Positions 24,434 through 58,854 of a stretch of 64,000 nucleotides of DNA are shown here, one piece after another. This DNA is from Ostreococcus lucimarinus. Lineage: Eukaryota. The notes below the pieces were generated by a model that saw only the letters and a list, made by a program, of their open reading frames with translations, was not told the origin of the DNA and ran no database searches. Position numbers and translations under genes: made by a program. Each line of letters begins with the position of its first letter. Position 1 is the stretch's first letter. The stretch is taken from NCBI GenBank assembly GCA_000092065.1, contig CP000582.1; one strand, 5' to 3'.

Positions 24434-24754
24434 CTATTCTACACGTTGTGCATCTGTCTGTCTTTGGCTCTCAGTGTAGTGCGGTGTTGCACGCGACACA
24501 ACTAACTTTCTACCTTTCCATCTGCAATGATTGAGCACCGACATACAACGATCAATCTCACTTTCTTGTGAAACAGTCAAATCTACAAAAGCAAATCCTC
24601 GACACTGCTGCGGCTCCGTACTGAACTTGTCGAGCTTGATGTCCACAGAAACTACGTCCCCAAAAGGTGCAAGACGCCTACTGATTTCGTCCACTGTGAC
24701 ATCTGGAGCAAGCCCTCCAACATGCAGACGGCTAGAAAACTTCATACGATGCAC
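24434..24754 (-). CDS. small RRM-domain protein, NOL8/Nop8-like RRM
   Basis: MKFSSRLHVGGLAPDVTVDEISRRLAPFGDV...RGFAFVDLTVSQESEIDRCMSVLNHCRWKGRKLVVSRA resembles the N-terminal RRM of NOL8 (..KCMSVLNKTKWKGG.L); little room downstream for more exons before Rab11. Confidence 0.4.
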   Translation of the reverse strand: MHRMKFSSRLHVGGLAPDVTVDEISRRLAPFGDVVSVDIKLDKFSTEPQQCRGFAFVDLTVSQESEIDRCMSVLNHCRWKGRKLVVSRATPHYTESQRQTDAQRVE

Positions 24755-25051
24755 TCGTGACTCTCGTTTTCGTTCTGCGTGAACTCAGTCGCCAATAGTT
24801 TGCTTGTCGCACAGGTTTTACGTTTCTGACCACGCTTGTAATTACGTCTTCCTTCGATGAGCGCGTGCGCCACGAAATAATAGCGACAACGGCTGCGTAA
24901 AAACTCGTTTGCGACCGAGCGTGATAGTGCCGAAGCAGGGCGTAGCGCGTGCGTTCAGGCGCGCGACTTCTTATGACGAGTCAACTACGTGTTGTTCATA
25001 TAGCTACAATGTTCCACAGCTACGACGGTAGTTATTGTCGCTCCCACAGCA

Positions 25052-25145
25052 ATCAAATAGGCTCTGCCTGCGCAGGTTCGAATCCTGCCGTCCGCGCACT
25101 GAACAAATGCGGACGTGCCCGAGTGGTTAAGGGGTTTGACTCGAA
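25052..25145 (+). tRNA. circularly permuted tRNA-Ser(CGA) gene: 3' half (anticodon-stem 3' strand TCAAA, long variable arm, T-arm GCAGG-TTCGAAT-CCTGC, acceptor 3' strand CGTCCGC, discriminator G), then a 12-nt spacer cactgaacaaat, then the 5' half (acceptor GCGGACG, D-arm CCCGAGTGGTTAAGGG, anticodon stem TTTGA, loop CTCGAA)
   Basis: acceptor strands GCGGACG/CGTCCGC and anticodon stem TTTGA/TCAAA are perfectly complementary only if the two halves are rejoined at anticodon-loop position 37/38; the D-loop GAGTGGTTAA and long variable arm are class-II (Ser) hallmarks; the anticodon is CGA. Confidence 0.55.
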
Positions 25146-25409
25146 TGAATGAATAGAGGAAAACATCTGAATGTACGTGACATTCGGCGTCTGAACAGCA
25201 GCATGTATTGACAAGACAAACGCCGAATTAAATACGCTTCCGCAAGTGTGTTCGAAGCAAAACACGCGGTTACCCTTGTTTTTTTTGCACCCTTGATGGC
25301 GGCGCATCACACGCGTACAGACGCTTTCGGCCGTCCAACCCGGGTCGAATTGAAAGGAACGAAACATTCTTTCGATCGATCGAACCACGTAAGGAGCGCA
25401 TCCAACTAC

Positions 25410-26745
25410 ATGGGCCAAACAGAAAAGGTTCGTTGAGTCGTATTTATAATTTTCGGCAATTGAACGCTAAGTAGGACCTGAAAATCGAACCCGAAAGTGC
25501 CAACCATACGCTCGATACGTCTGCATGGCCGCTTCTGCTAAAGAATTATGACAAGTTGATGGTACGTATCAATATTACGTGTTCTTTGCAAGTGTTCTTA
25601 GAGGGTATCTGTAGGTACGAACTGGTCACTACACTCCAATTCCGTGTGGAAGCTCTCCACTGCGACGACCACTGGCAGAGTATCTACGTTACGGGGTCAT
25701 CAATTTAGACAAGCCCGCCAATCCTTCTTCGCATGAGGTAGTTGCATGGTTGAAGCGCATCCTAAGGGTTGAAAAAACTGGACATAGTGGTACACTCGAC
25801 CCAAAAGTTACTGGTTCACTCATTGTCTGCATTGATCGTGCCACGCGCCTGGTAAAGTCTCAACAGGGTGCAGGCAAGGAGTACGTGTGCGTTTGTCGAT
25901 TGCATTCAGCGCCGACAGGTGGTAAGAGTGCTGTTGAACGCGGTATTGAAACTCTTACCGGCGCACTTTTTCAACGGCCACCGTTAATTTCAGCTGTCAA
26001 AAGACAGTTGCGCATTCGAACTATCTATGATAGTAAACTTCATGAGTTTGATGAGGCCAGGAATCTTGTTGTTTTCTGGGTATCATGTGAAGCAGGCACT
26101 TACGTTCGTACTTTATGTGTGCATCTTGGATTACTATTGGGAGTTGGTGGTCACATGCAAGAGTTACGCCGAGTTCGCTCTGGAATCTGCTCAGAGTCAA
26201 AGAACCTCGCGACCATGCACGACGTGCTAGATGCTATGTGGGTGTGTGACAACTTGAAAGATGATCATTACATTAGACGCGTTGTTATGCCGCTCGAGGT
26301 TTTGTTGACGAACTACAAGCGGGTTGTTGTGAAGGACTCCGCCATAAATGCAATTTGTTACGGTGCCAAGCTCATGATTCCTGGTTTATTAAGATATGAA
26401 GCTGGCATCGAGGTTGGGGATGAGTGCGTTCTGATGACAACGAAGGGCGAAGCTATCGCAATCGGCATAGCTGAAATGACAACTGCTGTTATGGCGACTT
26501 GCGACCATGGCAGCGTTGCTAAGGTCAAGCGAGTGGTAATGGAAAGAGACACTTATCCAAGACGTTGGGGTCTGGGTCCCAACGCGCAGAATAAGAAACA
26601 AACAAGCACCGATAAATCACAGAAATTAGGAGCGTCGATTATTGCATCCGACGGCGCAAATACGGGAAAAGAGATGATAAAGGAGAAGAAAGAGAAGAAA
26701 GAGAAGAAAGAGAAGAAAGAGAAGAAGAGAAAGCTGGACGAATAA
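25410..26745 (+). CDS. CBF5: H/ACA snoRNP pseudouridine synthase Cbf5/dyskerin, >=3 exons, C-terminal KKE repeat tail
   Basis: MGQTEK | [29 protein letters not shown] | [67 protein letters not shown]...TruB and PUA domains; tail [18 protein letters not shown]. Confidence 0.85.
26683..26731 (+). repeat. (GAGAAGAAA)n 9-bp tandem repeat encoding the KKE tail of Cbf5
   Basis: gagaagaaagagaagaaagagaagaaagagaagaag seen directly. Confidence 0.85.
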
Positions 26746-26886
26746 TTGCTGACAGTTTTGCAGTTTTTTTGATCCGATCGAGTGTACAAATCACACTGTA
26801 CTGCGACTGTTTTTAATAATAATCATATTGGTATGTTCTAGTTTCTACTTTTGACCACCATTCAAAGTCACTATTGCAGTTCAGCT

Positions 26887-27990
26887 CTACTGCGGACAAG
26901 CTCGCCTCTTATACAAAAATATCGACTTTTGATCACACAAGACAATATTAATCCCATCCGCCGTACAGTCCGCTAAACAAGTTTCGCACAGTTCAGCTGA
27001 TTCTTGATTGTCGCGCGTCATTAGTTTGATTTCTTTAAAGCTGTTTTTATTCGCATCTGACTCCCATGCACTACACGTACCAGCTCGTGAGCCAATCACC
27101 GTGAACACACAATTTTCGCTACAACCCACACACCCAGCGAAATGTAAAGTTGTATCCAAATACTCAAGCTCATCTACATCTGATGTGAAGACAGAAACAC
27201 TACTAAGTAGCCTTCTATCAAGTGTGCCCAGAAGGATAGAGGAACTTGTAGGTGCAAATGCAAGACGTGTGATGGGTGATAGACCACTTCGTCGCAGTGT
27301 ACGAATACAACCACACGTATGGACGTCCCACAAGCGGCAGCTGCCATCATAACTGGAACTTACTAGAAATGAGCCATCTCTGGCGAATTGCACGCCCGTG
27401 ACGGGGTCTGCGTGAGCAGGTATAACAGCTACACATCCTCCAGAAGCAACGTTCCAAAGTCGAATAGTTTCATCAATCGAACCACTAGCAATTATCGTAC
27501 TCAGCGCGTTTATACAACAACATAGCACTGCAGAAACATGTCCTCTGTAAGCTTGTAAGCATGTCGCCCCCGAGGCTTGCCATAAGAGGACTAGACCGTC
27601 ATCTGAACACGTGACTACAAATTTATCATCAGTGGACCAGCAACAGTCAGCAATAGCTCTCAAGTGTCCCCTGAAATTCTCGAGTCGCTCACCCGTGCCT
27701 ATACATCGAATGCTGCAACTGCCGTTCACCAAACCTAGTACTACCCTGGGCCAATTAAATCATAATCTATTACATCGGAGTATTGAGGGATTTGCCTACC
27801 TTTTACCGTCGTTCGATATCTTCAGTGACGTTATGCCTTCACAGCTCATGGTCAGTACGCGCGCACACTTGTACTCCATCGATCAGCGCATGTGGCCGAC
27901 GCCGTCTGTTAAACTTGCGGTTGCTTCAACAGTTTGCGTCCGCACTTGGTACCAGGTTACACTGCCGTTCGCACTGCTCGCGTCATCTTT
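26887..27990 (-). CDS. WDR5-like WD40-repeat protein, multi-exon (N-terminal exons upstream of 27732 not resolved)
   Basis: FRGHLRAIADCCWSTDDKFVVTCSDDGLVLLWQASGATCLQAYRGHVSAVLCCCINALSTIIASGSIDETIRLWNVASGGCVAVIPAHADPVTGVQFARDGSFLVSSSYDGSCRLWDVHTCGCIRTL aligns repeat-by-repeat with WDR5; the first ~2 blades are missing from the ORF, so upstream exons are needed. Confidence 0.55.
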
Positions 27991-28147
27991 GTGTTTAAAT
28001 TTCAACTGTACTGAAGTTCAGTTACTGAACAGTTTTTCATGCAGTTGATTTAACACCTCGGTCGGCTGCAGTTTTTTACATGTAGTAAACGCGTCGCATT
28101 AAGTGCATGATAATTTAATTTGCGTGCGATCATCGAACTTGCGTTGC

Positions 28148-28195
28148 GAGCGACCTCGGCAAATGTGTACTAAACGCAGTTGCCGAGGTCGCTTT
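28148..28195. promoter_or_regulatory. 14-bp perfect inverted repeat (agcgacctcggcaa ... ttgccgaggtcgct) with a 17-nt loop in the divergent WDR5-like/TRM13 intergenic region
   Basis: seen directly; position ~150 bp upstream of the TRM13 ATG. Confidence 0.4.
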
Positions 28196-28343
28196 GGGGC
28201 GAGAGGAACGTCAAAGTTTTGTGCACGCTGCGTCGATGTCTTCGCATAGAACCTCCCGTCGTCTCGCAGATTGTGTGACGTAAGCTGATATCCTGTACAC
28301 ATCTTGTTCAGTCATATGTGTCCAGCTGTGTTGTGAAAGCGCC

Positions 28344-29597
28344 ATGTCGGTTTGCGGAGAAAGGGAGCAACTTGGCTCCAACGCTGTAGAAAATGGAACA
28401 ATCTATAGACATCCATATTGCGCACGCTTTATCTCTTCCAAGCAAAGGTTTTGTGGATTGATGGCAAAAGCTGGGCATTCGTTCTGCGTTCACCACCTAC
28501 CCACAGAACAGTCGGAGTATATTTTTGCTTTCTGTCCAAAGTGCAAAACAAAAATTGCTAGTGATAGGGTAGACGCTCATTTAAGAAAGTGCCCCGTTCG
28601 CTTGAAAGAACAGCAGATTACAAATGAGATTTACTTTTGGAAAGATATCAACAGTGCCAAAGAGACGGTGGTAGACAAAACAGTAAGCTTGCGCGAACTC
28701 TCAGGCACGCAACTCGCTCTTCTGCTCGATAAAATTAGTCAAGCCGAACCAAAATGCTCGTCTTACTTGAGTAGACGTTCGAGCAGCTCACACGATGACG
28801 GCAAGACCATGCATAGTGTACACGTCCCACAGCGGACAAGTGAATCGGAAGCGCTACAGCGTGTCGCCATAGCAGAGGCCGTGCAAAAAGTTCGAGACGT
28901 CTTTGATCTTAGTACTAATAGTGCACTTGTTGAGCTTTGCTCCGGACGTGCGTATCTTTCAGCAGAGATCATGAAAACATGGCCGTTCTCAAAGCTATTA
29001 CTTGTCGACCGTCGTTCACATCGCTTCAAGGCGGATAGATTCCTTCGTCATCAAAGTGAGCTGAGGCGTTTGCTCATTGACATCAAGGATCTGGATTTGT
29101 ATAAAGTCTCTCTATTGAATAAATCGGAAGTGACCATCGTGGGTAAACACTTGTGCGGTGAAGCTACTGATTTCGCTTTAAAGTGTGCATTATCTTATCT
29201 GAAAGATAGTACAGTCACGTTCAGAGGATTGGCAATTGCTCCATGTTGTCACCACGCTTGTAAATGGTCTTCTTTCGTCAATACACCGTTTCTTGAAACA
29301 CTCGGCTTCAGCGAGACGGATTTTGGCTATCTCATACGTATGACGAGCTGGGCAACCACACTGTCTACTGGTTGCACGTCCCACGGATTCAGTTCTGATT
29401 TTGCGATTCACACTGAGGATATGGATGCGTGCCGAACCCTTAGTAGCAATGATAAACTACGCGTAGGGCGATACGTAAAGCTGATTCTCAACACAGCTCG
29501 TGTTCTATGGTGCAAAGAGCGCGGTTTCGACGTAAGCTTGGAGGAGTATACTAATGTTTGGGTAACGCCTGAGAATCAGCTAATACTTGTAAGATAG
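28344..29597 (+). CDS. TRM13: tRNA:m4X (2'-O) methyltransferase TRM13, single exon
   Basis: N-terminal CHHC zinc fingers (CARFISSKQRFCGL...HSFCVHHL; FCPKCKTKIASDRVDAHLRKC) and C-terminal TRM13 methyltransferase domain (HLCGEATDFALKCAL, LAIAPCCHHAC). Confidence 0.7.
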   Translation: MSVCGEREQLGSNAVENGTIYRHPYCARFISSKQRFCGLMAKAGHSFCVHHLPTEQSEYIFAFCPKCKTKIASDRVDAHLRKCPVRLKEQQITNEIYFWKDINSAKETVVDKTVSLRELSGTQLALLLDKISQAEPKCSSYLSRRSSSSHDDGKTMHSVHVPQRTSESEALQRVAIAEAVQKVRDVFDLSTNSALVELCSGRAYLSAEIMKTWPFSKLLLVDRRSHRFKADRFLRHQSELRRLLIDIKDLDLYKVSLLNKSEVTIVGKHLCGEATDFALKCALSYLKDSTVTFRGLAIAPCCHHACKWSSFVNTPFLETLGFSETDFGYLIRMTSWATTLSTGCTSHGFSSDFAIHTEDMDACRTLSSNDKLRVGRYVKLILNTARVLWCKERGFDVSLEEYTNVWVTPENQLILVR

Positions 29598-30759: not shown

Positions 30760-32136
30760 TTAGTCTTCAAAGGGTGCAAATATAACGCAAGAATTGTGGC
30801 CACCGAAACCAAAGGAATTACTAATGGCGGCGGTAACCGTGTGCGCCTTCTTTTCGTTTGCACACGTATCGATCCCTTCAACTATCGGTTCCAGTTCGTT
30901 TTGGTTCAGAGTCGGATGCAGCATGCCAGTCTTTATCGCCATGATACAAGCGATGGCTTCCATCCCCCCTGCAGCACCGAGACAATGTCCGATCATTGAT
31001 TTGGTTGCATTCATTTTGACATTTTGTACGTCTTTGAATACCTTGCGAACAGCGTTGACTTCTGCGACGTCGCCGACAAGAGTTGAGGTGGCGTGTGCGT
31101 TGATGTAGTTTATATCTGACACGGAGATACCAGCATCCTTGATGGAAAGCTCTATGCACGTGGATACTCCAAGACCATCGGCTCGTGGATCAGTCATATG
31201 ATGCGCGTCACAGGTGATGGCTCCACCAAGATACTCTGCGTGGATGCGAGCACCACGCTTCTTTGCGCTTTCCAACGTCTCCATGATGAGGACACCAGCA
31301 CCTTCACCCATCACGAATCCATCTCTAGACTTGTCCCAGGGTCGAGAGGCCCCCTCCGGATCATCATTATTTTGGCTGAGAGCTCGACAAGCGACGAAAC
31401 CACCCAGACCAACAGGAATGATGGGTGCTTCAGAGCCACCGGCGATCATGATTTCTGCGTCGCCGTTCCTGATGTGATTGGCTGCCGCGTGAAAGGCGTA
31501 ATTTGCCGTTGCGCAGGCGGTCGAGATAGAATAATTCGGTCCCATAAAACCTTTTTCAATAGCAAGCATTGCACCGCCCATGTTTGTGATGGCATAAGGA
31601 ATGAAAAATGGAGTTATCTTCTTCGGCCCCTTCTCCACGAGTGCTTTCACACCATCCTGGAAAACAGTGAGGCCACCCATACCGCTGCCAACGAGAACAC
31701 CGACGCGTTGTTTATCGAGGTTTTCGAGTGCGGCAGCATCCAGACCTGCATCTTCCAAAGCTTTGTTACCAGACACGAGAGCATAACGAAGACAGTCGTC
31801 AAGTCGTCTATCGTTTTTCTTGTCGATGTAACCCTCGCTGTCGAAATTGCGAATTTGTGCAGCGAATTTCGTTGGAAAGTCACTCGTATCGAATCGATCG
31901 ATCGGCGCAACGCCACTTTGTCCAGAAAGAAGCTTATCGTAGTATGCGGTGTAGTCGTTACCAAACACAGAACATAACCCCATTCCCGTAATCACGACTC
32001 TTTTCTTCGGATCAGTCTCACGTGCCATCGCAATAACGGCGGAACGACATTTTGATCTCCGACATGATGATCTAGGGGTCGCGCGTAAGATATTGTGCGT
32101 TGGTTGCCTACTTGCCAAAGAGTTCATCGCCGTCAA
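30760..32136 (-). CDS. KAS: 3-oxoacyl-[acyl-carrier-protein] synthase I/II (plastid type-II FAS KAS), single exon with transit peptide
   Basis: RVVITGMGLCSVFGNDYTAYYDKLLSGQSGVAPIDRFD, active-site region ISTACATANYAFHAAANHIRNGDAEIMIAGG, HATSTLVGD, GHCLGAAG, NSFGFGGHN; N-terminal ~45 aa are S/R/C-rich. Confidence 0.85.
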   Translation of the reverse strand: MTAMNSLASRQPTHNILRATPRSSCRRSKCRSAVIAMARETDPKKRVVITGMGLCSVFGNDYTAYYDKLLSGQSGVAPIDRFDTSDFPTKFAAQIRNFDSEGYIDKKNDRRLDDCLRYALVSGNKALEDAGLDAAALENLDKQRVGVLVGSGMGGLTVFQDGVKALVEKGPKKITPFFIPYAITNMGGAMLAIEKGFMGPNYSISTACATANYAFHAAANHIRNGDAEIMIAGGSEAPIIPVGLGGFVACRALSQNNDDPEGASRPWDKSRDGFVMGEGAGVLIMETLESAKKRGARIHAEYLGGAITCDAHHMTDPRADGLGVSTCIELSIKDAGISVSDINYINAHATSTLVGDVAEVNAVRKVFKDVQNVKMNATKSMIGHCLGAAGGMEAIACIMAIKTGMLHPTLNQNELEPIVEGIDTCANEKKAHTVTAAISNSFGFGGHNSCVIFAPFED

Positions 32137-35403: not shown

Positions 35404-36811
35404 CGAGTTCTAATACTTATTCTCATACTGCGATCTTACCGGGAGTTCGAGGCGTACATCGCCCTAAATCGTATGGAGACAACTTCTCTGTGAACAGGAA
35501 AGGATATCCAATCTGGCCTTAAGTCTCCTGTAATATTGCAATTTTCATTGTACAAACTAGCTCTGCCGTCGTTCTAATCACTAAATTGAAGTTCACGCTT
35601 GCAGCTTCGTGTAAAAGTCGATTTCACGTTCGTAGGTATTTGCGTATTCGGATTCTCAAAGGTAGGCCCCTTGCCAGAGAGCCCCGTTATCTCTTGAATA
35701 TTCGCCCAGTCGCCGCGCGTAAAGTTGTAGGTTTGCATCAAATTCAGGACGTCTGGTATACCATCTAGTTCTTTACCCCCTCGAGCTTGACTAAAAAGCG
35801 GACGAGTGAGCAACCGTTTTGTCAAAGAAGCGTACCAGAGGCAAAACTCAAGTTGAGTGCTGCAGCTCCTACCACTTGATCGAAAATGTTGATACAACTC
35901 TGATAACAGCCGCTGCGATTTTGACTTTGACGACAACTTCCCCAAGAGACTTGGGAATCGATGAGTGTGGCGTTCAGCCTGACCAAATGTTTCTCTTGAG
36001 CCTCTGACGGCAGAGGTTGGCAGGACACATGAAACTATGTTCGCAGGAGGCATCATGGTCCAGTTTTGTGTCTTGTTTATTGTCGTCGCAAACACATCTC
36101 CTTCTGCTACACGTGACGATGCCGCAGCAACGTGCACAATTCTTTGCAACTCGTTTGTACTGTCTCGCGGGCGCATACACGCATAGTTTTCTTGAACGAA
36201 CAGAGGGATCATGTCTGAGTGCTGGAAAACCAGATTAAGCCTCTCATCGAGTGTTTTTAATGGGCTTGGACGAAAAAGAACATCTATTGCTTGAAAAACA
36301 CTTGTGGCGACATCTTTTTTCGAAATTTCATTCCTTCCGTGATGCTTCGAGCTCATGCCCCATAGTTGTAGCTGGTTGATACTGGATCGAAGGTCATTGT
36401 TGTTTGCTTCTATGAGAGCATCAACTGCGTCGCTATCAACATCCAAGCGTTGTGAGGCTACAATTTGATTCAAGTACTTTCGGAGCTGGAGCTTATTTGG
36501 CCGTTGGAAAGGTAAATCGACACAATAGTTTGCAAGAGTCTTTAGTTTTTGTGAATATCGGTCGTTGCAGATGCATATGATGGGAATGCGCGTGTGTTTG
36601 ATGACTTCTATCAACTCCGAGATACCACCCCGATCGCCACCAGCCATACCATCTACTTCATCCATGATCAGTGCAGTCTTTGTTGATCGCAAACCATCAA
36701 TACCGATGTTACGATTAGTTACAAACTCTCGAACAGTACTCGCCAATGTTCCCGCTATCCCATCACTTACTGCTCCAGTCTTACCTCTTGAATCGCTTGC
36801 GTTTACGTTCA
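35382..36811. repeat. segmental duplication copy B (source copy, embedded in the RFC1 gene)
   Basis: see copy A; a 15-bp microduplication tcgtgcagaatttgt tcgtgcagaatttgt sits exactly at its left junction (35364-35393). Confidence 0.9.
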
Positions 36812-37070
36812 TCGTTTGAAATCCAAGTTCTCGGCAAATAAGGATGGCACTCGTGGTCTTGCCAATTCCAGGCGCTCCACTTATGAGTATTGCTTTTCGG
36901 GTCGACACTTTTGAAGCTTTTCCTGTGGCTTGATTCCCTGGCCAGTTTGAGAGCCAAGTTCGGAGAGTAGCGATGGCGCTACTATTTCCGACCAAGTCTG
37001 CGAGTACTCTCGGAGAAAATTTGTCAGTCCACAAATTTGCAGAATTTTCTATACCATAGTAGGCATGCAT
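35574..37070 (-). CDS. RFC1: replication factor C large subunit (RFC1), AAA+ module to C-terminus only; N-terminal/BRCT region absent
   Basis: LWTDKFSPR...[37 protein letters not shown]...[17 protein letters not shown]...[15 protein letters not shown]..., C-terminal ...[25 protein letters not shown]...[22 protein letters not shown]; an in-frame stop lies 21 codons upstream of the first Met and no BRCT-encoding exon fits before the GC-rich block. Confidence 0.8.
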   Translation of the reverse strand: MHAYYGIENSANLWTDKFSPRVLADLVGNSSAIATLRTWLSNWPGNQATGKASKVSTRKAILISGAPGIGKTTSAILICRELGFQTMNVNASDSRGKTGAVSDGIAGTLASTVREFVTNRNIGIDGLRSTKTALIMDEVDGMAGGDRGGISELIEVIKHTRIPIICICNDRYSQKLKTLANYCVDLPFQRPNKLQLRKYLNQIVASQRLDVDSDAVDALIEANNNDLRSSINQLQLWGMSSKHHGRNEISKKDVATSVFQAIDVLFRPSPLKTLDERLNLVFQHSDMIPLFVQENYACMRPRDSTNELQRIVHVAAASSRVAEGDVFATTINKTQNWTMMPPANIVSCVLPTSAVRGSRETFGQAERHTHRFPSLLGKLSSKSKSQRLLSELYQHFRSSGRSCSTQLEFCLWYASLTKRLLTRPLFSQARGGKELDGIPDVLNLMQTYNFTRGDWANIQEITGLSGKGPTFENPNTQIPTNVKSTFTRSCKRELQFSD

Positions 37071-37079
37071 AGAAGTCCT

Positions 37080-37260
37080 CGCCAGTTTGCTGGCGGGATA
37101 CTCCTCGAAGCCAACTCTCTTCCTGCTGCTCAGTGGCTCCTATTCAAACTTGTCAAGGCAGTGCGTTTGTGCTTACTTATTATCGTACCATGATGCGCAC
37201 AGTCTTTGTGTCTACGATTCAGTCCAGTGGCGATGCGTATAGCGTTTTCACACCGCGAAC
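37080..37260. other. compositional and architectural junction between the low-GC intron-rich compartment and the high-GC intron-poor compartment
   Basis: abrupt switch to gcgcgc-rich sequence at ~37205; gene structure, codon GC3 and intron density differ on the two sides. Confidence 0.8.
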
Positions 37261-37350
37261 TGCGCCGCTCGACGCGACGCCGCGGCGCCCCTCCGCCGCG
37301 CGTCGAGTCTAAATTTTCACGCCTCTGTACATGGGCTCAAAACGCCCACA

Positions 37351-38238
37351 ATGCGCACATTTACGACCGCGCGACACCGCCGCGCGACCCCGCGCGCGCC
37401 CGCGTCCGCGCGCGCGCGCGCGCGCCCGCGCCGTCCGCGCCGTCCGCGACGCCGATCGATGTCGACCTCGACCGCGACCGCGACGACGACGACGACGGCG
37501 ACGCCGTCGCGCGCGCGCGCGCGCGGACGCGGCGCCGTCGCGCGCGCGTCGTCGTCGTCGTCCGCGTCGTCGTCCGCGCGCGCGCGCGACGCGGACGACG
37601 CGCGGCGCGCGCGCGCGCGCGGGCGCGTGCACGTCATCTGCGGACCGATGTTCGCGGGCAAGACGACGCACCTGATGCGATGCGTCGAGCGCGAGCGCGC
37701 GCGCGGACGGACGGTGTTCGTGATCAAATCCGAGCTCGACGTCGAGCGGTTCGGCGAGGACGCGCGCGACGCGCTGATCGCGCACGACGGGAAGCGCGTG
37801 CGGTTCGACGCGAGCGACGACGGCGGAAGGGTGCGCGCGGTGCGGACGCTGGACGCGGCGGGACTGGGCGCGGACGCGGCGGCGTGCGACGCGGCGGACG
37901 TCGTCGCGGTGGACGAGGCGCAATTCATGGGAGACTTGGCGCCGTTCGCGCGACGGTGCGCGGAGGAGCTGGGACAGACGGTGTACGTGTGCGGGTTGGA
38001 CGGGGATTACAGGCGGGAGAGGTTCGGGGGGGTGTTGGATTTGATTCCGCTGTGCGACACGGTGACGCGATTGAGAGGGACGTGCGCGGAGTGCGGAGAC
38101 GAGAGTTTATTCAGTCGACGCGTCGAGGCGAGCGAGGACGTGGTGCGCGTGGGAGGGAGGGATAAGTACGCGCCCGTGTGTCGAGCGTGTTACGTCGCGG
38201 CGTCGACGCGGGAGAGAGGGTCGGCGTCGGCGCGGTGA
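37351..38238 (+). CDS. TK1: thymidine kinase (TK1 type) with a long Ala/Arg/Ser-rich N-terminal extension (true start uncertain)
   Basis: VICGPMFAGKTTHLMRCVERE (P-loop), VVAVDEAQFM, VYVCGLDGDYRRERFG, zinc-ribbon CAECGDESLFSRR...YAPVCRACY. Confidence 0.75.
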   Translation: MRTFTTARHRRATPRAPASARARARPRRPRRPRRRSMSTSTATATTTTTATPSRARARGRGAVARASSSSSASSSARARDADDARRARARGRVHVICGPMFAGKTTHLMRCVERERARGRTVFVIKSELDVERFGEDARDALIAHDGKRVRFDASDDGGRVRAVRTLDAAGLGADAAACDAADVVAVDEAQFMGDLAPFARRCAEELGQTVYVCGLDGDYRRERFGGVLDLIPLCDTVTRLRGTCAECGDESLFSRRVEASEDVVRVGGRDKYAPVCRACYVAASTRERGSASAR

Positions 38239-51682: not shown

Positions 51683-52582
51683 TCATTCACGTTCTCTCGC
51701 GGCGCGTTTCGACTCGACGCGACGACGCACGTACGCCGTGCGCGTTCTTCGCCGTTCATTCAACTTGACTTCGCTCGGACGTTTCTTTTCAGGCGCCCGA
51801 GCTCGCGAGACGAGCGACGAGACCCACGCCCCGTCCTCGCGTTCGAAACCGCGCGTTTCATTTTCATCGACGAAGGCGCGCCGACCGTCGTCGTCGACCA
51901 ATCTAAAGTGCAAGCACTCGCCCGGCTCAAACGGAAACACGAGATAATCCTTCCCGCACCCCCCCGGCGCGCGATCATCGCACCAGGACCACCCATCGCA
52001 CCGCCCGTCGTCCTCGCACGCCCCGCAGCACGCCGCCGCGGTCGCCGCCGCCCGCGCGCGAATCCTCCGCGCCCCTCGCTCGCGTTCGCCGTCCATCGGC
52101 GTCTCCGATCGAAACGCCCGTCCCTCGTCCTCGCACCTCTCCCTCGACCACTCCCGCAGCGCCTCGTCCAATTCCCCTCGCGCGCCGTCCCTAAAAAACG
52201 TCGGCGCGCATCCCATCGCGCGCGCCAGCGCGCTCGCTCGGATCGTCGCGTTCTCGACGGCGCCCATCGCCGCGAGCGCGCACGCGCGCGCCTCCGCGCC
52301 GCTCGCGTCGCTCGCCCCCTCGCCGTGCGCCTCCCAGAGCGACGCCGCGAGGCACGCGCCGCACGATCGCGTCGTCGCGCACGCGTCCGCGACGCGCGTC
52401 GCCGTCGCGTTCGCGCTCCCGGCGCGCGCGAACGCGCACCGACGCGTCGCCGCGCGCGCCGAACCGGGCACCGCGAGCGCCGTCATCATCATCGTCGCCA
52501 GCGCGCGTCGACGCGTCGCCCGGCGCGTCTCGGACGCGCGCGGCCGCGTCTCGAGCGCGCCTCGGCGCGCGTTCGCGCGCAT
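51683..52582 (-). CDS. hypothetical Cys-containing secreted protein (signal-peptide-like MMMTALAVPGSARA)
   Basis: 299-aa ORF with coding-like GC3; no family assignment. Confidence 0.3.
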   Translation of the reverse strand: MRANARRGALETRPRASETRRATRRRALATMMMTALAVPGSARAATRRCAFARAGSANATATRVADACATTRSCGACLAASLWEAHGEGASDASGAEARACALAAMGAVENATIRASALARAMGCAPTFFRDGARGELDEALREWSRERCEDEGRAFRSETPMDGERERGARRIRARAAATAAACCGACEDDGRCDGWSWCDDRAPGGCGKDYLVFPFEPGECLHFRLVDDDGRRAFVDENETRGFEREDGAWVSSLVSRARAPEKKRPSEVKLNERRRTRTAYVRRRVESKRAARERE

Positions 52583-52698
52583 CGCCGGGTCCCTCGCGTC
52601 GCGCGCGACGCGCGGCGCGGCACAGTGCGGATGCGACGCCGACGCGACGACGAGGACGACGACGACGGCGCGCTCGCGCGCGCGATGGACGCCGCGCG

Positions 52699-56736: not shown

Positions 56737-58854
56737 ATGTCCGCGTGGCCGGACCCGCGCGCGGGGCTGCTGCGCGCGAACGCGACGGCGCGGGGGGGTG
56801 ATGAGGCGGCGCGAGGACGCGACGGCGCGCGCGGCGGCGGCGCGGCGGCGTTGACGCTGGATGATTTGATCCTGCGACGCGCGGGCGACGCGAGCGCGGG
56901 CGCGAGCGCGAACGTCGTCGACGCGGGCGCGCGCGGGACGGGCGCGAGCGGGACGGGCGCGAGCGGGACGCTGTTTTCGAGAGCGCGCGCGCCGGTGGTG
57001 GTGACGGGGTGGGCGAATCCGCACGCGGGCGGCGACGAAGCGCGGGACGGCGCGCGCGGTCGCGACGGAGTCGATCGCGCGTTTTCGGACGCGCGCGATC
57101 GCCGTGGCGCGGGGAGACAGCCGTTGGAGCTCGCGGGACGGCGAAACGCGGTGGGCGTGGTGCGAGACGCGGTGGATTACAACGCGGGATATTTGTCGCC
57201 GGACGAAGTAAACGCCGATCTCGACGGGCCACCATCGCCCGTGCGAGGGTTCGCGCAGCGGTTGATGTCGCTCGATGCGTCGCCGACGCCGCGAGGGAAG
57301 CACTCGCGGAAGCGTGGGACGACGAATCGAAGCGCGGAACCGGATGGGGCGTACGAGTACGAGCAAAGGCGAAAGCGCGCGCGCCGCGCGGCGATGAAGG
57401 AGGCGGAGGCGCTCGCGGCGGCTGCACGGCGGATGCCCGTGAGTCCAGGAAGCGATTCGGGCGCGCCAGGATCGGCGTCGCGATCGGGCCGCGCGTTGCG
57501 CGCGCCTGGAGCGTTCTGGACGGGTGCGGGTGTCTCGAGAGATGAGCGCTCCTGGCGGCAGCCGGCGTCGCCGCCGAAACGCGGACGAGGCAGACCGCCG
57601 AAGAACGCGAAACGATACTCACCGCCGTCGTCGGAGGACGAATACGAAGACTTCGGCGGTGCGGAGGAAGGTGAGCGAGGCTGGAGCGAGGACAAAGACG
57701 CGCACGCGCGAGGTGGTCGTGCGCCCGCGAACGCGGCGCGCGCGCTGAATAGCATTAGAGGACACGCAGCGCCGACTCGGCGACAACCGCAGGCGCCGCG
57801 CGAGCGCGGCACGCGCAAGGGTAAGCCCGGACCGAAGCCCGGTGTTGCGGCAGCGAAGAAGGCTGCCATGATCGCCGCTGGGATTCCGATCCCCGTGCTT
57901 CCACCGGGCGTCAAGCGCGGTCGCGGTCGCCCGCCGAAGAGCATGCTTATCATCCCGGACGGCCCTCCGAACGCAAACCTTCCGGACACCGTCATTCGTT
58001 CCATAGCCGAGGTCGACCCAAGAGTGATCGAAAAGGTGAAACCCGAACGTTTTCGCGCGGTCTCTACGACGAATTCAGCGCTGAGATCTTCGTACGTGGC
58101 GCCGCCGCTTCAAGAAGAGCGAACGGCGTGCATCGCGTGCGGCCGCGTCGACGGCGAAGACAGAATGCTCCTGTGCGATGGATGCGATAAGGGCTATCAC
58201 ACGCACTGTTTGGTCCCTCGACTAGACAAAGTCCCAGAGAATGAATGGTTTTGTTACGAATGCGTGACGCAAAATCGACCGAAGACAGCCGCGGCGGAGG
58301 CGTTTGAACGCCGCCAAGCCTCCAAGGCGCGGTTCGCGCCGGAGACGACGTACGACGAATGTCAGCGCGTGAGCGACAAATTGAAGCTCAACGGCGAACG
58401 CAAGCTCAAACCCGGACCGAAACCAGGGTCGAAAATGAAAAAGAATCACCGCCGCGACGACGAGTTCGATGACGACAGATACGCCGCGGCGCCGTCGACG
58501 GAGAAGCGCCCGGTCGGTCGACCGAAAAAGGACCCCAACGCTTGGTCGGACGAGCAATTAGAGGCGTTACAAAACGCTCAAGTGCGCGTGGATCTCGGTC
58601 GTAAAAACTTTTGGACCGAAGTCGCGAGTTACGTTCCTGGGAAAACGGCACAGCAGTGCAAAGAACAAGTGTACGCTGGCTTGAACATCGGCGCCGACGA
58701 CGCCGACGACGCAGACCGATCCGATACCGACGAAGACGTCGAAGATACCCCACACAACCAGCATCAACAACGAACGTTTCGAACGCCCACCAAGCCTAAC
58801 TCATCGCGCGAAAACGCAGAGCGCTGGCGCAATCGCGCGCCCCAGCGCTCGTAG
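56737..58854 (+). CDS. chromatin protein with two AT-hooks, a PHD finger and a Myb/SANT-like domain
   Basis: AT-hooks PKRGRGRPPKNAKR and VKRGRGRPPKSM; PHD CIACGRVDGEDRMLLCDGCDKGYHTHCLVPRLDKVPENEWFCYEC; SANT/Myb-like WSDEQLEALQNAQVRVDLGRKNFWTEVASYVPGKTAQQCKEQVY. Confidence 0.6.
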   Translation: MSAWPDPRAGLLRANATARGGDEAARGRDGARGGGAAALTLDDLILRRAGDASAGASANVVDAGARGTGASGTGASGTLFSRARAPVVVTGWANPHAGGDEARDGARGRDGVDRAFSDARDRRGAGRQPLELAGRRNAVGVVRDAVDYNAGYLSPDEVNADLDGPPSPVRGFAQRLMSLDASPTPRGKHSRKRGTTNRSAEPDGAYEYEQRRKRARRAAMKEAEALAAAARRMPVSPGSDSGAPGSASRSGRALRAPGAFWTGAGVSRDERSWRQPASPPKRGRGRPPKNAKRYSPPSSEDEYEDFGGAEEGERGWSEDKDAHARGGRAPANAARALNSIRGHAAPTRRQPQAPRERGTRKGKPGPKPGVAAAKKAAMIAAGIPIPVLPPGVKRGRGRPPKSMLIIPDGPPNANLPDTVIRSIAEVDPRVIEKVKPERFRAVSTTNSALRSSYVAPPLQEERTACIACGRVDGEDRMLLCDGCDKGYHTHCLVPRLDKVPENEWFCYECVTQNRPKTAAAEAFERRQASKARFAPETTYDECQRVSDKLKLNGERKLKPGPKPGSKMKKNHRRDDEFDDDRYAAAPSTEKRPVGRPKKDPNAWSDEQLEALQNAQVRVDLGRKNFWTEVASYVPGKTAQQCKEQVYAGLNIGADDADDADRSDTDEDVEDTPHNQHQQRTFRTPTKPNSSRENAERWRNRAPQRS

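What the first reader, a model, noticed from the sequence alone, without database searches (positions are those of the whole stretch)
25052..25145. Circularly permuted tRNA-Ser(CGA) gene
The T-arm, acceptor 3' strand and discriminator (GCAGGTTCGAATCCTGC-CGTCCGC-G) lie upstream of the acceptor 5' strand, D-arm and anticodon stem-loop (GCGGACG-TG-CCCGAGTGGTTAAGGG-G-TTTGA-CTCGAA), separated by 12 nt. The two acceptor strands and the two anticodon-stem strands are perfectly complementary only after circular rejoining at position 37/38. Such genes need a circular pre-tRNA intermediate. They are known from Cyanidioschyzon and, as I recall, a few prasinophyte algae, so this supports the taxonomic inference and is a rare gene form. 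A standard tRNA scanner would miss it.
Basis: partly seen in the sequence, partly recalled or inferred. Interest (0 to 1): 0.65.

Follow-up and report, generated by a model that had tools for sequence, protein, structure and literature searches.

The report
Known permuted tRNA-Ser(CGA) gene, Ostreococcus
This is a real, functional-looking tRNA-Ser gene whose two halves are encoded in swapped order and must be rejoined through a circular RNA, but this gene in this alga (Ostreococcus lucimarinus) was already listed in the literature from 2010, so it is a correct call and not a discovery.

Summary
Window 25052-25096 encodes tRNA positions 38-73, 25097-25108 is a 12-nt intervening sequence, and 25109-25145 encodes positions 1-37. 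Rejoined at 37/38 they give an 82-nt tRNA-Ser(CGA) that ARAGORN calls cleanly. ARAGORN and Rfam miss the gene in the genomic sequence.

A neighbouring protein is 100% identical to one from Ostreococcus lucimarinus CCE9901. The 2014 review of permuted tRNA genes lists this gene for that species: Ser(CGA), type II (37/38), 12-bp intervening sequence, no intron (citing Maruyama et al. 2010). The finding is therefore already known.

New supporting evidence comes from 37 metagenomic relatives, which with the window make 19 distinct gene types.
- All keep the permuted layout and the 37/38 junction.
- Mature sequences average 94% identity. Intervening, leader and trailer sequences average 43-53%.
- All 24 cloverleaf pairs stay paired, and 13 show compensatory changes, including 4 of 5 anticodon-stem pairs that exist only after rejoining.
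- Leader position -3 is G in 19/19 types, pairing with C32 as the anticodon-intron pair used by the eukaryal splicing endonuclease.

This argues against a relic. A strict BHB fold and a nearby poly-T terminator are not present.

The parts
24998..25003 (+). TATA-like element ATATAG, 54 nt upstream of tRNA position 38. It is a candidate upstream Pol III promoter element (inferred).
   Evidence: Motif scan. A TATA-like or AT-rich box lies at about -41 to -59 in 11 of 19 gene types. It aligns in the syntenic loci (TTCATATAGC, TTTATATAGC, TTTTATAC, GTTATATTC, AATAAATA). The review notes an 'ambiguous AT-rich region' upstream of green-algal permuted genes.
25048..25051 (+). Last four leader nucleotides, A(-4) G(-3) C(-2) A(-1). 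G25049 can pair with C32 and A25048 with U33 (anticodon-intron pair). C25050, A25051 and A38 form the 3-nt bulge that holds the 3' processing site.
   Evidence: Position -3 is G in 19/19 distinct gene types and -4 is A (14), G (3) or T (2), while -1, -2, -5 and beyond vary freely. G110 is the only invariant leader column near the junction in alignment A2.
25052..25096 (+). 3' half of tRNA-Ser(CGA), positions 38-73. A38 is 25052, the anticodon-stem 3' strand is 25053-25057, the variable arm is 25059-25069, the T arm is 25072-25088, the acceptor 3' strand is 25089-25095 and discriminator G73 is 25096.
   Evidence: It is invariant across syntenic orthologues except one variable-loop base.
25097..25108 (+). 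12-nt intervening sequence CACTGAACAAAT. [quoted passage not shown] CCA is not encoded.
   Evidence: The length matches the published O. lucimarinus entry. It is unconserved among relatives: 12-39 nt long, mean identity 0.43.
25109..25145 (+). 5' half of tRNA-Ser(CGA), positions 1-37. The acceptor 5' strand is 25109-25115, U8 G9 are 25116-25117, the D arm is 25118-25133, the anticodon-stem 5' strand is 25135-25139, and the loop CTCGAA is 25140-25145 with anticodon CGA at 25142-25144.
   Evidence: It is invariant across syntenic orthologues.
25146..25286 (+). Putative trailer, up to the first T run (T8 at 25279-25286, 134 nt downstream of position 37). The true 3' end of the primary transcript is unknown.
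   Evidence: The first run of 4 or more T is at +134 here and +144 in the close relative L027, but at +3 to +38 in most other lineages. The sequence was read.

Best explanation
This is the nuclear, circularly permuted tRNA-Ser(CGA) gene of Ostreococcus lucimarinus, type II with the junction at 37/38. The proposed pathway has four steps. (1) The locus is transcribed as one linear precursor in the order leader, 3' half (positions 38-73), 12-nt intervening sequence, 5' half (positions 1-37), trailer, probably by RNA polymerase III from an upstream TATA-like element. (2) The two halves fold into the normal tRNA body, with the acceptor stem closed by the 12-nt loop and the anticodon stem formed between the two ends of the tRNA sequence. 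This makes the leader/trailer junction look like a canonical 37/38 intron, with a C32:G(-3) anticodon-intron pair and a 3-nt bulge. The tRNA-splicing endonuclease removes the leader and trailer, and tRNA ligase joins A37 to A38, giving a 94-nt circle. (3) RNase P and tRNase Z cut out the 12-nt intervening loop. (4) CCA is added. Shown here: the gene anatomy, its conservation and covariation, and the conserved -3/-4 leader nucleotides. Inferred from the literature and not shown for this locus: single-transcript expression, the enzymes involved, the circular intermediate and aminoacylation.
For: Anatomy and a clean cloverleaf after rejoining. Organism identity, and a match to the published catalogue entry for isotype, junction type and 12-bp intervening length. 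All 37 metagenomic relatives, found with a pattern that did not require an upstream 3' half, have position 38 exactly 45 nt upstream of the discriminator and give 82-nt tRNA-Ser(CGA) after rejoining; 36 are called by ARAGORN, and L017 was mis-parsed because of a duplication. Mature sequence mean identity is 0.94, against 0.43 for the intervening sequence, 0.53 for the leader and 0.51 for the trailer. On 6 distinct mature sequences, 100% of cells are paired and 13 of 24 pairs have changes on both sides, including 6/7 acceptor pairs and 4/5 anticodon-stem pairs. 0/500 shuffles reach this, and slid controls give 34-45% pairing. Leader G(-3) is present in 19/19 types and A/G(-4) in 17/19. The gene is syntenic (RRM gene, tRNA, dyskerin) in several diverged lineages, with only the two tRNA halves alignable in the intergenic region. 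The intervening sequence contains no T run. The review reports RT-PCR and northern detection of precursors, circular intermediates and mature tRNAs for some green-algal permuted genes.
Against: No strict BHB forms. The central helix H has only 2 of 4 possible pairs (C32:G-3 and U33:A-4; C34/C-5 and G35/A-6 mismatch), and MFE folds do not recover a BHB. Leader-trailer complementarity is no better than in shuffles (window z=+0.8; mean z=-0.24 over 19 types). The first poly-T terminator is 134 nt downstream, which is unusually far for a Pol III tRNA gene. No expression data for this particular locus could be examined, and the primary paper (Maruyama 2010) is not held, so I do not know whether this specific gene was among those validated experimentally.
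Confidence: 0.93

Rival explanations
1. It is a decaying relic of a tandem tRNA-Ser duplication, made of the 3' end of one copy and the 5' end of the next, is not expressed as a functional tRNA, and an ordinary Ser(CGA) or a wobbling Ser(UGA) tRNA does the work.
For: Tandem duplication followed by loss of the outer segments is the proposed evolutionary origin of permuted genes (review). UCG codons could in principle be read by tRNA-Ser(UGA) (general knowledge). The rest of the genome could not be searched for an ordinary copy. There is no nearby poly-T.
Against: A relic would not keep both halves nearly invariant while everything between and around them diverges. It would not accumulate compensatory changes in the anticodon stem, which is split between the two halves. 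It would not keep the junction at the same nucleotide in 19 gene types, or keep G at leader -3. Permuted Ser(CGA) is also present in O. tauri, both Micromonas genomes and chlorarachniophyte nucleomorphs.
Confidence: 0.03
2. It is a split tRNA. The two halves are transcribed as separate RNAs and joined in trans, as in Nanoarchaeum, with no circular intermediate.
For: The gene order alone does not distinguish the cis-circular route from a trans route, and leader-trailer pairing is weak.
Against: Only 12 nt separate the halves, with no T run or AT-rich promoter-like element between them. In relatives the spacer is as short as 13-14 nt and is unconserved. Circular intermediates that retain the intervening sequence were detected for algal permuted tRNAs according to the review. 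Known split tRNAs use long complementary flanks, which are absent here.
Confidence: 0.03
3. It is a chance resemblance, or part of a protein-coding region: a 121-aa ORF at 25053-25418 on the minus strand overlaps it.
For: The mechanical ORF list contains an overlapping minus-strand ORF with a TTG start.
Against: There were 0 matches in 100 shuffles and 0 calls in 6 shuffled windows. The locus has canonical tRNA nucleotides (U8, G18G19, U33, T54-Psi55-C56, G73) and shows RNA-type covariation. No gene is called there on the metagenomic contigs. Flanks that fall inside that ORF are unalignable between orthologous loci.
Confidence: 0.01

Closest known systems
O. lucimarinus permuted tRNA-Ser(CGA), type II (Maruyama et al. 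2010, Mol Biol Evol 27:1070; listed in Soma 2014, PMC3978253, Table 1)
   Same: Same organism, same isoacceptor, same 37/38 junction, same 12-bp intervening length and no intron. It is almost certainly the same gene.
   Different: Nothing detectable. I could not read the primary paper to compare coordinates or sequence.
Permuted tRNA-Ser(CGA) genes of O. tauri (28 bp), Micromonas pusilla (19 bp), Micromonas RCC299 (16 bp) and the Bigelowiella natans and Amorphochlora nucleomorphs (5 bp)
   Same: Same isoacceptor and same type II junction. The metagenomic loci L011/L035 have a 28-nt intervening sequence like O. tauri, and a mature sequence that differs from the window's by 1 nt.
   Different: The intervening sequence, leader and trailer are unrelated in sequence and length. 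Most relatives have a poly-T within 3-38 nt of position 37, whereas this gene has none for 134 nt.
[quoted passage not shown] 2007, Science 318:450)
   Same: Same gene architecture and the same proposed maturation through a circular intermediate. Both have an upstream TATA-like element.
   Different: C. merolae junctions occur at several positions (20/21, 37/38, 50/51, 59/60) with varied BHB forms, and a T stretch follows closely. Here the junction is the canonical intron position, with only a relaxed motif (2-bp H plus a 3-nt bulge).
Canonical eukaryotic nuclear tRNA intron at 37/38 with an anticodon-intron (A-I) base pair
   Same: The leader and trailer together occupy the place of an intron. 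The 3' processing site lies in a 3-nt bulge closed by a pair between position 32 and the nucleotide 3 nt upstream of the site, and that nucleotide is invariant.
   Different: The 'intron' is open: its two ends are the transcript ends. Cleavage and ligation therefore circularise the tRNA, where an ordinary intron is simply excised.

Membership tests
Circularly permuted tRNA gene (type II, junction 37/38) | The 3' half is encoded upstream of the 5' half on the same strand, separated by a short intervening sequence joining discriminator 73 to position 1 | tested here: met
   25052-25096 (positions 38-73), 12 nt, 25109-25145 (positions 1-37), all on the + strand.
Circularly permuted tRNA gene (type II, junction 37/38) | The rejoined halves give a complete canonical cloverleaf with conserved tRNA nucleotides | tested here: met
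   ARAGORN calls an 82-nt tRNA-Ser(cga). Across relatives the cloverleaf is 100% paired, with 13 of 24 pairs covarying.
Circularly permuted tRNA gene (type II, junction 37/38) | The sequences flanking the junction form a BHB or relaxed hBH motif (anticodon stem h, 3-nt bulge, 4-bp helix H) | tested here: inconclusive
   h and the 3-nt bulge (C-2, A-1, A38) are present, and the C32:G-3 and U33:A-4 pairs are present and conserved. However, H has only 2 of 4 pairs, and MFE folding does not recover the motif.
Circularly permuted tRNA gene (type II, junction 37/38) | No promoter or terminator lies in the intervening sequence; there is an upstream TATA-like or AT-rich element and a downstream T stretch | tested here: inconclusive
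   The 12-nt spacer has no T run. ATATAG lies at -54. The first T run (T8) is only at +134.
Circularly permuted tRNA gene (type II, junction 37/38) | A circular RNA intermediate, and a mature tRNA with post-transcriptional CCA | not testable with these tools
   CCA is not encoded: G73 is followed by CAC. The review reports experimental detection for some green-algal genes. Data specific to this locus were not available.
Published O. lucimarinus tRNA-Ser(CGA) permuted gene | Organism is O. lucimarinus; Ser(CGA); type II; 12-bp intervening sequence; no intron | tested here: met
   The neighbouring ORF is 100% identical to XP_001416220.1 of O. lucimarinus CCE9901. The features match Table 1 of PMC3978253.
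Class II tRNA-Ser | Long variable arm, discriminator G73, 3-bp D stem with an extended D loop, and anticodon CGA with U33 | tested here: met
   Variable arm AGGC-TCT-GCCT, G73, D stem CCC/GGG and loop CUCGAAA.

The most novel reading that the evidence does not exclude
The gene itself is known, but two aspects may not have been described. (a) Permuted Ser(CGA) is anchored in the low-GC block of the Mamiellales outlier chromosome, next to the dyskerin gene, across many Ostreococcus-like and Bathycoccus-like lineages. (b) In the O. lucimarinus lineage the nearby poly-T terminator has been lost, which implies a trailer of about 134 nt or a non-canonical mode of transcription or termination. If either reflects function, for example a link between this tRNA and the recombination-suppressed region, or Pol III-independent expression, that would be new.
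Probability: 0.1. Interest if true: 0.4.

Novelty: already known. Interest (0 to 1): 0.18.

Why it matters
Permuted tRNA genes show that a functional RNA can be encoded with its halves swapped and recovered through a circular intermediate. They are also a practical annotation trap, because ARAGORN and Rfam both miss this gene, so genomes appear to lack an isoacceptor. For this window the value is confirmatory. It pins the sequence to Ostreococcus lucimarinus and shows that the first-stage reader can recognise such genes by eye. The metagenomic comparison adds modest new support: purifying selection, compensatory changes across the split anticodon stem, and an invariant G at leader -3. These show that the gene is functional and processed like a 37/38 intron. 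No new biology is established.

Tried and rejected
1. Unconstrained and constrained MFE folding of the precursor with 15-60 nt flanks, to find a strict BHB. None was recovered, only the 2-bp anticodon-leader pairing.
2. RNAduplex test for a conserved leader-trailer helix across 19 gene types. It was not better than shuffles (mean z=-0.24); only L012, L016 and L015 show one.
3. The bacterial promoter/terminator scan is irrelevant to a eukaryotic Pol III gene and showed nothing near the gene.
4. Rfam at E<=10 gave no tRNA model hit. The other weak hits (STnc240, plastid UTR motifs, IRE) are chance.
5. The ARAGORN 'tRNA-???' at 52513-52609(-) is a CG-rich stretch with a 2-nt 'anticodon', and I reject it as spurious.
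6. A brute-force any-junction scan gave one extra call at 58681-58805(-). I reject it because its acceptor stem has three G-U pairs and a mismatch, and it lacks U8 and G18G19.
7. The primary paper (Maruyama 2010) is not held, and the supplement of PMC3673656 is not held. I therefore could not check the full tRNA gene set or which genes were validated experimentally.
8. The O. tauri T2T preprint only mentions searching for permuted tRNAs and gives no expression data.
9. The overlapping minus-strand 121-aa ORF was considered and rejected as a gene.

Full report
**Observation.** The + strand at 25052-25145 reads ATCAAATAGGCTCTGCCTGCGCAGGTTCGAATCCTGCCGTCCGCG / CACTGAACAAAT / GCGGACGTGCCCGAGTGGTTAAGGGGTTTGACTCGAA.
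- The first block is tRNA positions 38-73: A38, the anticodon-stem 3' strand, the long variable arm, the T arm, the acceptor 3' strand and G73.
- The second block is a 12-nt spacer.
- The third block is positions 1-37: the acceptor 5' strand, U8 G9, the D arm, the anticodon-stem 5' strand and the loop CUCGAA.

Joining the third block to the first gives an 82-nt molecule that ARAGORN calls tRNA-Ser(cga), with every stem intact. ARAGORN on the native window does not report it. Rfam does not report it at gathering threshold or with the tRNA model at E<=10.

**Chance.**
- A degenerate permuted-Ser(CGA) pattern matches once in the window and in none of 100 dinucleotide shuffles.
- I took every acceptor-like inverted pair with a spacer of up to 80 nt, rejoined the flanks and ran ARAGORN. 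This returns only this locus in the real window and nothing in six shuffled windows.
- A brute-force scan allowing a junction at any position (about 5 million constructs) again returns this locus, plus one isolated call at 58681-58805(-). That call lacks U8 and G18G19, has a G-U-rich mismatched acceptor stem, and is spurious.

**Organism and prior knowledge.** The ORF at 28344-29597 is a TRM13-type tRNA methyltransferase. It is 100% identical over 417 aa to XP_001416220.1/ABO94513.1 of Ostreococcus lucimarinus CCE9901, and is carried on a record of 895,087 bp. The same protein occurs on many marine metagenome contigs.

Table 1 of the review by Soma (Front Genet 2014, PMC3978253) lists four permuted genes for O. 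lucimarinus, citing Maruyama et al. 2010. One of them is 'Ser(CGA), II (37/38), intervening 12 bp, no intron'. Isotype, junction, spacer length and absence of an intron all match, so this gene is already catalogued.
- Permuted Ser(CGA) is also listed for O. tauri (28 bp), M. pusilla (19 bp), Micromonas RCC299 (16 bp) and the B. natans nucleomorph (5 bp).
- It was later reported for the Amorphochlora nucleomorph.
- Permuted tRNA genes are now reported in Auxenochlorella as well.
- I could not open the primary paper.

**Comparative evidence gathered here.** I scanned metagenome contigs with a pattern that required only a T loop, any 10 nt plus G, a 13-43 nt gap, and a Ser-type 5' half with the CTCGAA loop. 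The gap range excluded 12 nt so that O. lucimarinus itself would not swamp the results. The scan returned 37 loci.

The pattern did not require an upstream 3' half. Even so, in every locus the acceptor strands are fully complementary, and a strand complementary to the anticodon-stem 5' strand sits at the same fixed distance, giving a 45-nt 3' half. 36 of 37 rejoined products are called tRNA-Ser(cga), 82 nt. The exception, L017, was a parsing artefact caused by a 16-nt duplication.

Together with the window there are 19 distinct gene types, 6 distinct mature sequences, and intervening sequences of 12-39 nt. Mean pairwise identity is 0.94 for the mature tRNA, 0.43 for the intervening sequence, 0.53 for the leader and 0.51 for the trailer.

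On the six distinct mature sequences all 24 cloverleaf pairs are paired in all sequences, and 13 pairs show changes on both sides. These include 6 of 7 acceptor pairs and 4 of 5 anticodon-stem pairs. No shuffle in 500 reaches this, and slid controls give 34-45% pairing. The anticodon stem is formed between the extreme 5' and 3' ends of the gene, so compensatory change there is direct evolutionary evidence that the halves act together after rejoining. In orthologous intergenic regions (RRM gene, tRNA, dyskerin) only the two tRNA halves align. This rules out a decaying relic.

**Junction.** The leader ends ...A(-4) G(-3) C(-2) A(-1) | A38.
- Position -3 is G in 19/19 gene types.
- Position -4 is A (14), G (3) or T (2).
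- Positions -1, -2, -5 and beyond vary freely.

G(-3) can pair with C32 and A(-4) with U33, which leaves -2, -1 and 38 as a 3-nt bulge that contains the 3' processing site. This is the geometry of the anticodon-intron pair that the eukaryal splicing endonuclease uses at canonical 37/38 introns. That is established knowledge, summarised in the review.

A strict BHB is not present. The central helix has only 2 of 4 pairs in this gene, MFE folds do not recover the motif, and leader-trailer complementarity is no better than in shuffles across lineages. This agrees with the review's description of the green-algal junctions as a relaxed hBH at the canonical position, recognised by a ruler-type eukaryal enzyme.

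**Transcription signals.** A TATA-like ATATAG lies 54 nt upstream of position 38. Comparable AT-rich boxes lie at -41 to -59 in 11 of 19 types and line up in the syntenic alignment. The spacer has no T run. The first run of 4 or more T is a T8 at 25279-25286, 134 nt downstream of position 37. The close relative L027 has its first run at +144, while most other lineages have one at +3 to +38. I cannot explain the long trailer, and the transcript's 3' end needs to be mapped.

**Mechanism.** The pathway is the published model (Soma 2007, Maruyama 2010, as reviewed) applied to this locus. Gene anatomy, selection and the -3/-4 constraint are shown here; the other steps are inferred.
1. A single precursor is made (inferred).
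2. It folds into the tRNA body, with the acceptor stem closed by the 12-nt loop.
3. The splicing endonuclease cleaves at 37/trailer and leader/38.
4. Ligation of A37 to A38 gives a 94-nt circle.
5. RNase P and tRNase Z remove the 12-nt loop.
6. CCA is added. It is not encoded, because G73 is followed by CAC.

**Verdict.** The observation and the interpretation are both correct. The feature is an already described gene of a known, rare class. Interest is low as a discovery, and the comparative data add modest confirmation.

Noticed in passing
window 36000-38000 (step at about 37000); whole window: There is a sharp compositional step. GC is 0.46-0.50 from 1 to about 37000, then 0.55-0.75 to the end. 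The window appears to span the edge of the low-GC block described for an Ostreococcus outlier chromosome; assigning it to chromosome 2 is my inference.
   Followed up: partly
window 24434-29597; L012, L023, L024, L027, L029, L030, L031, L036, L039, L040, L041: The permuted tRNA lies between an RRM-protein gene (24434-24754, -) and the dyskerin/Cbf5 gene (25750-26745, +), followed by a WD40 gene and a TRM13 tRNA methyltransferase gene. The RRM, tRNA, dyskerin order recurs in several diverged metagenomic lineages. 35 of the 37 related loci have GC of only 0.39-0.48 (L006 and L015 are higher), so the gene seems anchored in the low-GC region across Ostreococcus-like and probably Bathycoccus-like genomes.
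   Followed up: partly
L011 4235-4344 (+), L035 7663-7772 (-), compared with L010 6876-6971 (+): The 28-nt intervening sequence of L011/L035 is an exact tandem doubling of the 14-mer GTGTATCGAATGCA, which is close to the 14-nt spacer of L010. So the spacer evolves by slippage or duplication. 28 nt is also the length published for O. tauri.
   Followed up: no
L017 1447-1557 (-): A 16-nt tandem duplication (TGCGTGAACGCGGATG x2) copies the acceptor 5' strand into the intervening region. This gives two candidate RNase P sites in an otherwise L013-type gene.
   Followed up: partly
window 25146-25286; L027 trailer: There is no run of 4 or more T for 134 nt (window) or 144 nt (L027) downstream of position 37, while most other lineages have poly-T within 3-38 nt. 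The trailer contains a perfect 6-bp hairpin (GAATGT-ACGTG-ACATTC, 25171-25187) whose stem is conserved in L027.
   Followed up: partly
window 52513-52609 (-): ARAGORN reports a 'tRNA-???' with a 2-nt anticodon in a very CG-rich stretch. The sequence is CGCG-rich and low in complexity, lies inside long ORFs, and has no Rfam support, so it is a false positive.
   Followed up: yes
window about 30904 (inside the ketoacyl-synthase ORF 30760-32136, -); L002-L005: Four contigs from independent metagenome assemblies (about 37.0-37.2 kb each) all end at the same point, about 1.3 kb downstream of the TRM13 gene. This suggests a population-level polymorphism, or a repeat or paralogue, that breaks assemblies there.
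   Followed up: no
L006 926-1045 (-), L015 1137-1236 (-): These are the two most divergent permuted Ser(CGA) genes, with mature identity as low as 0.71 among the gene types. One is on a GC-rich contig (0.63, possibly Micromonas-like) and one on a 0.51-GC contig of unknown origin. Both have a full 4-bp anticodon-leader helix (C:G, U:A, C:G, G:U), unlike the Ostreococcus-type genes.
   Followed up: no
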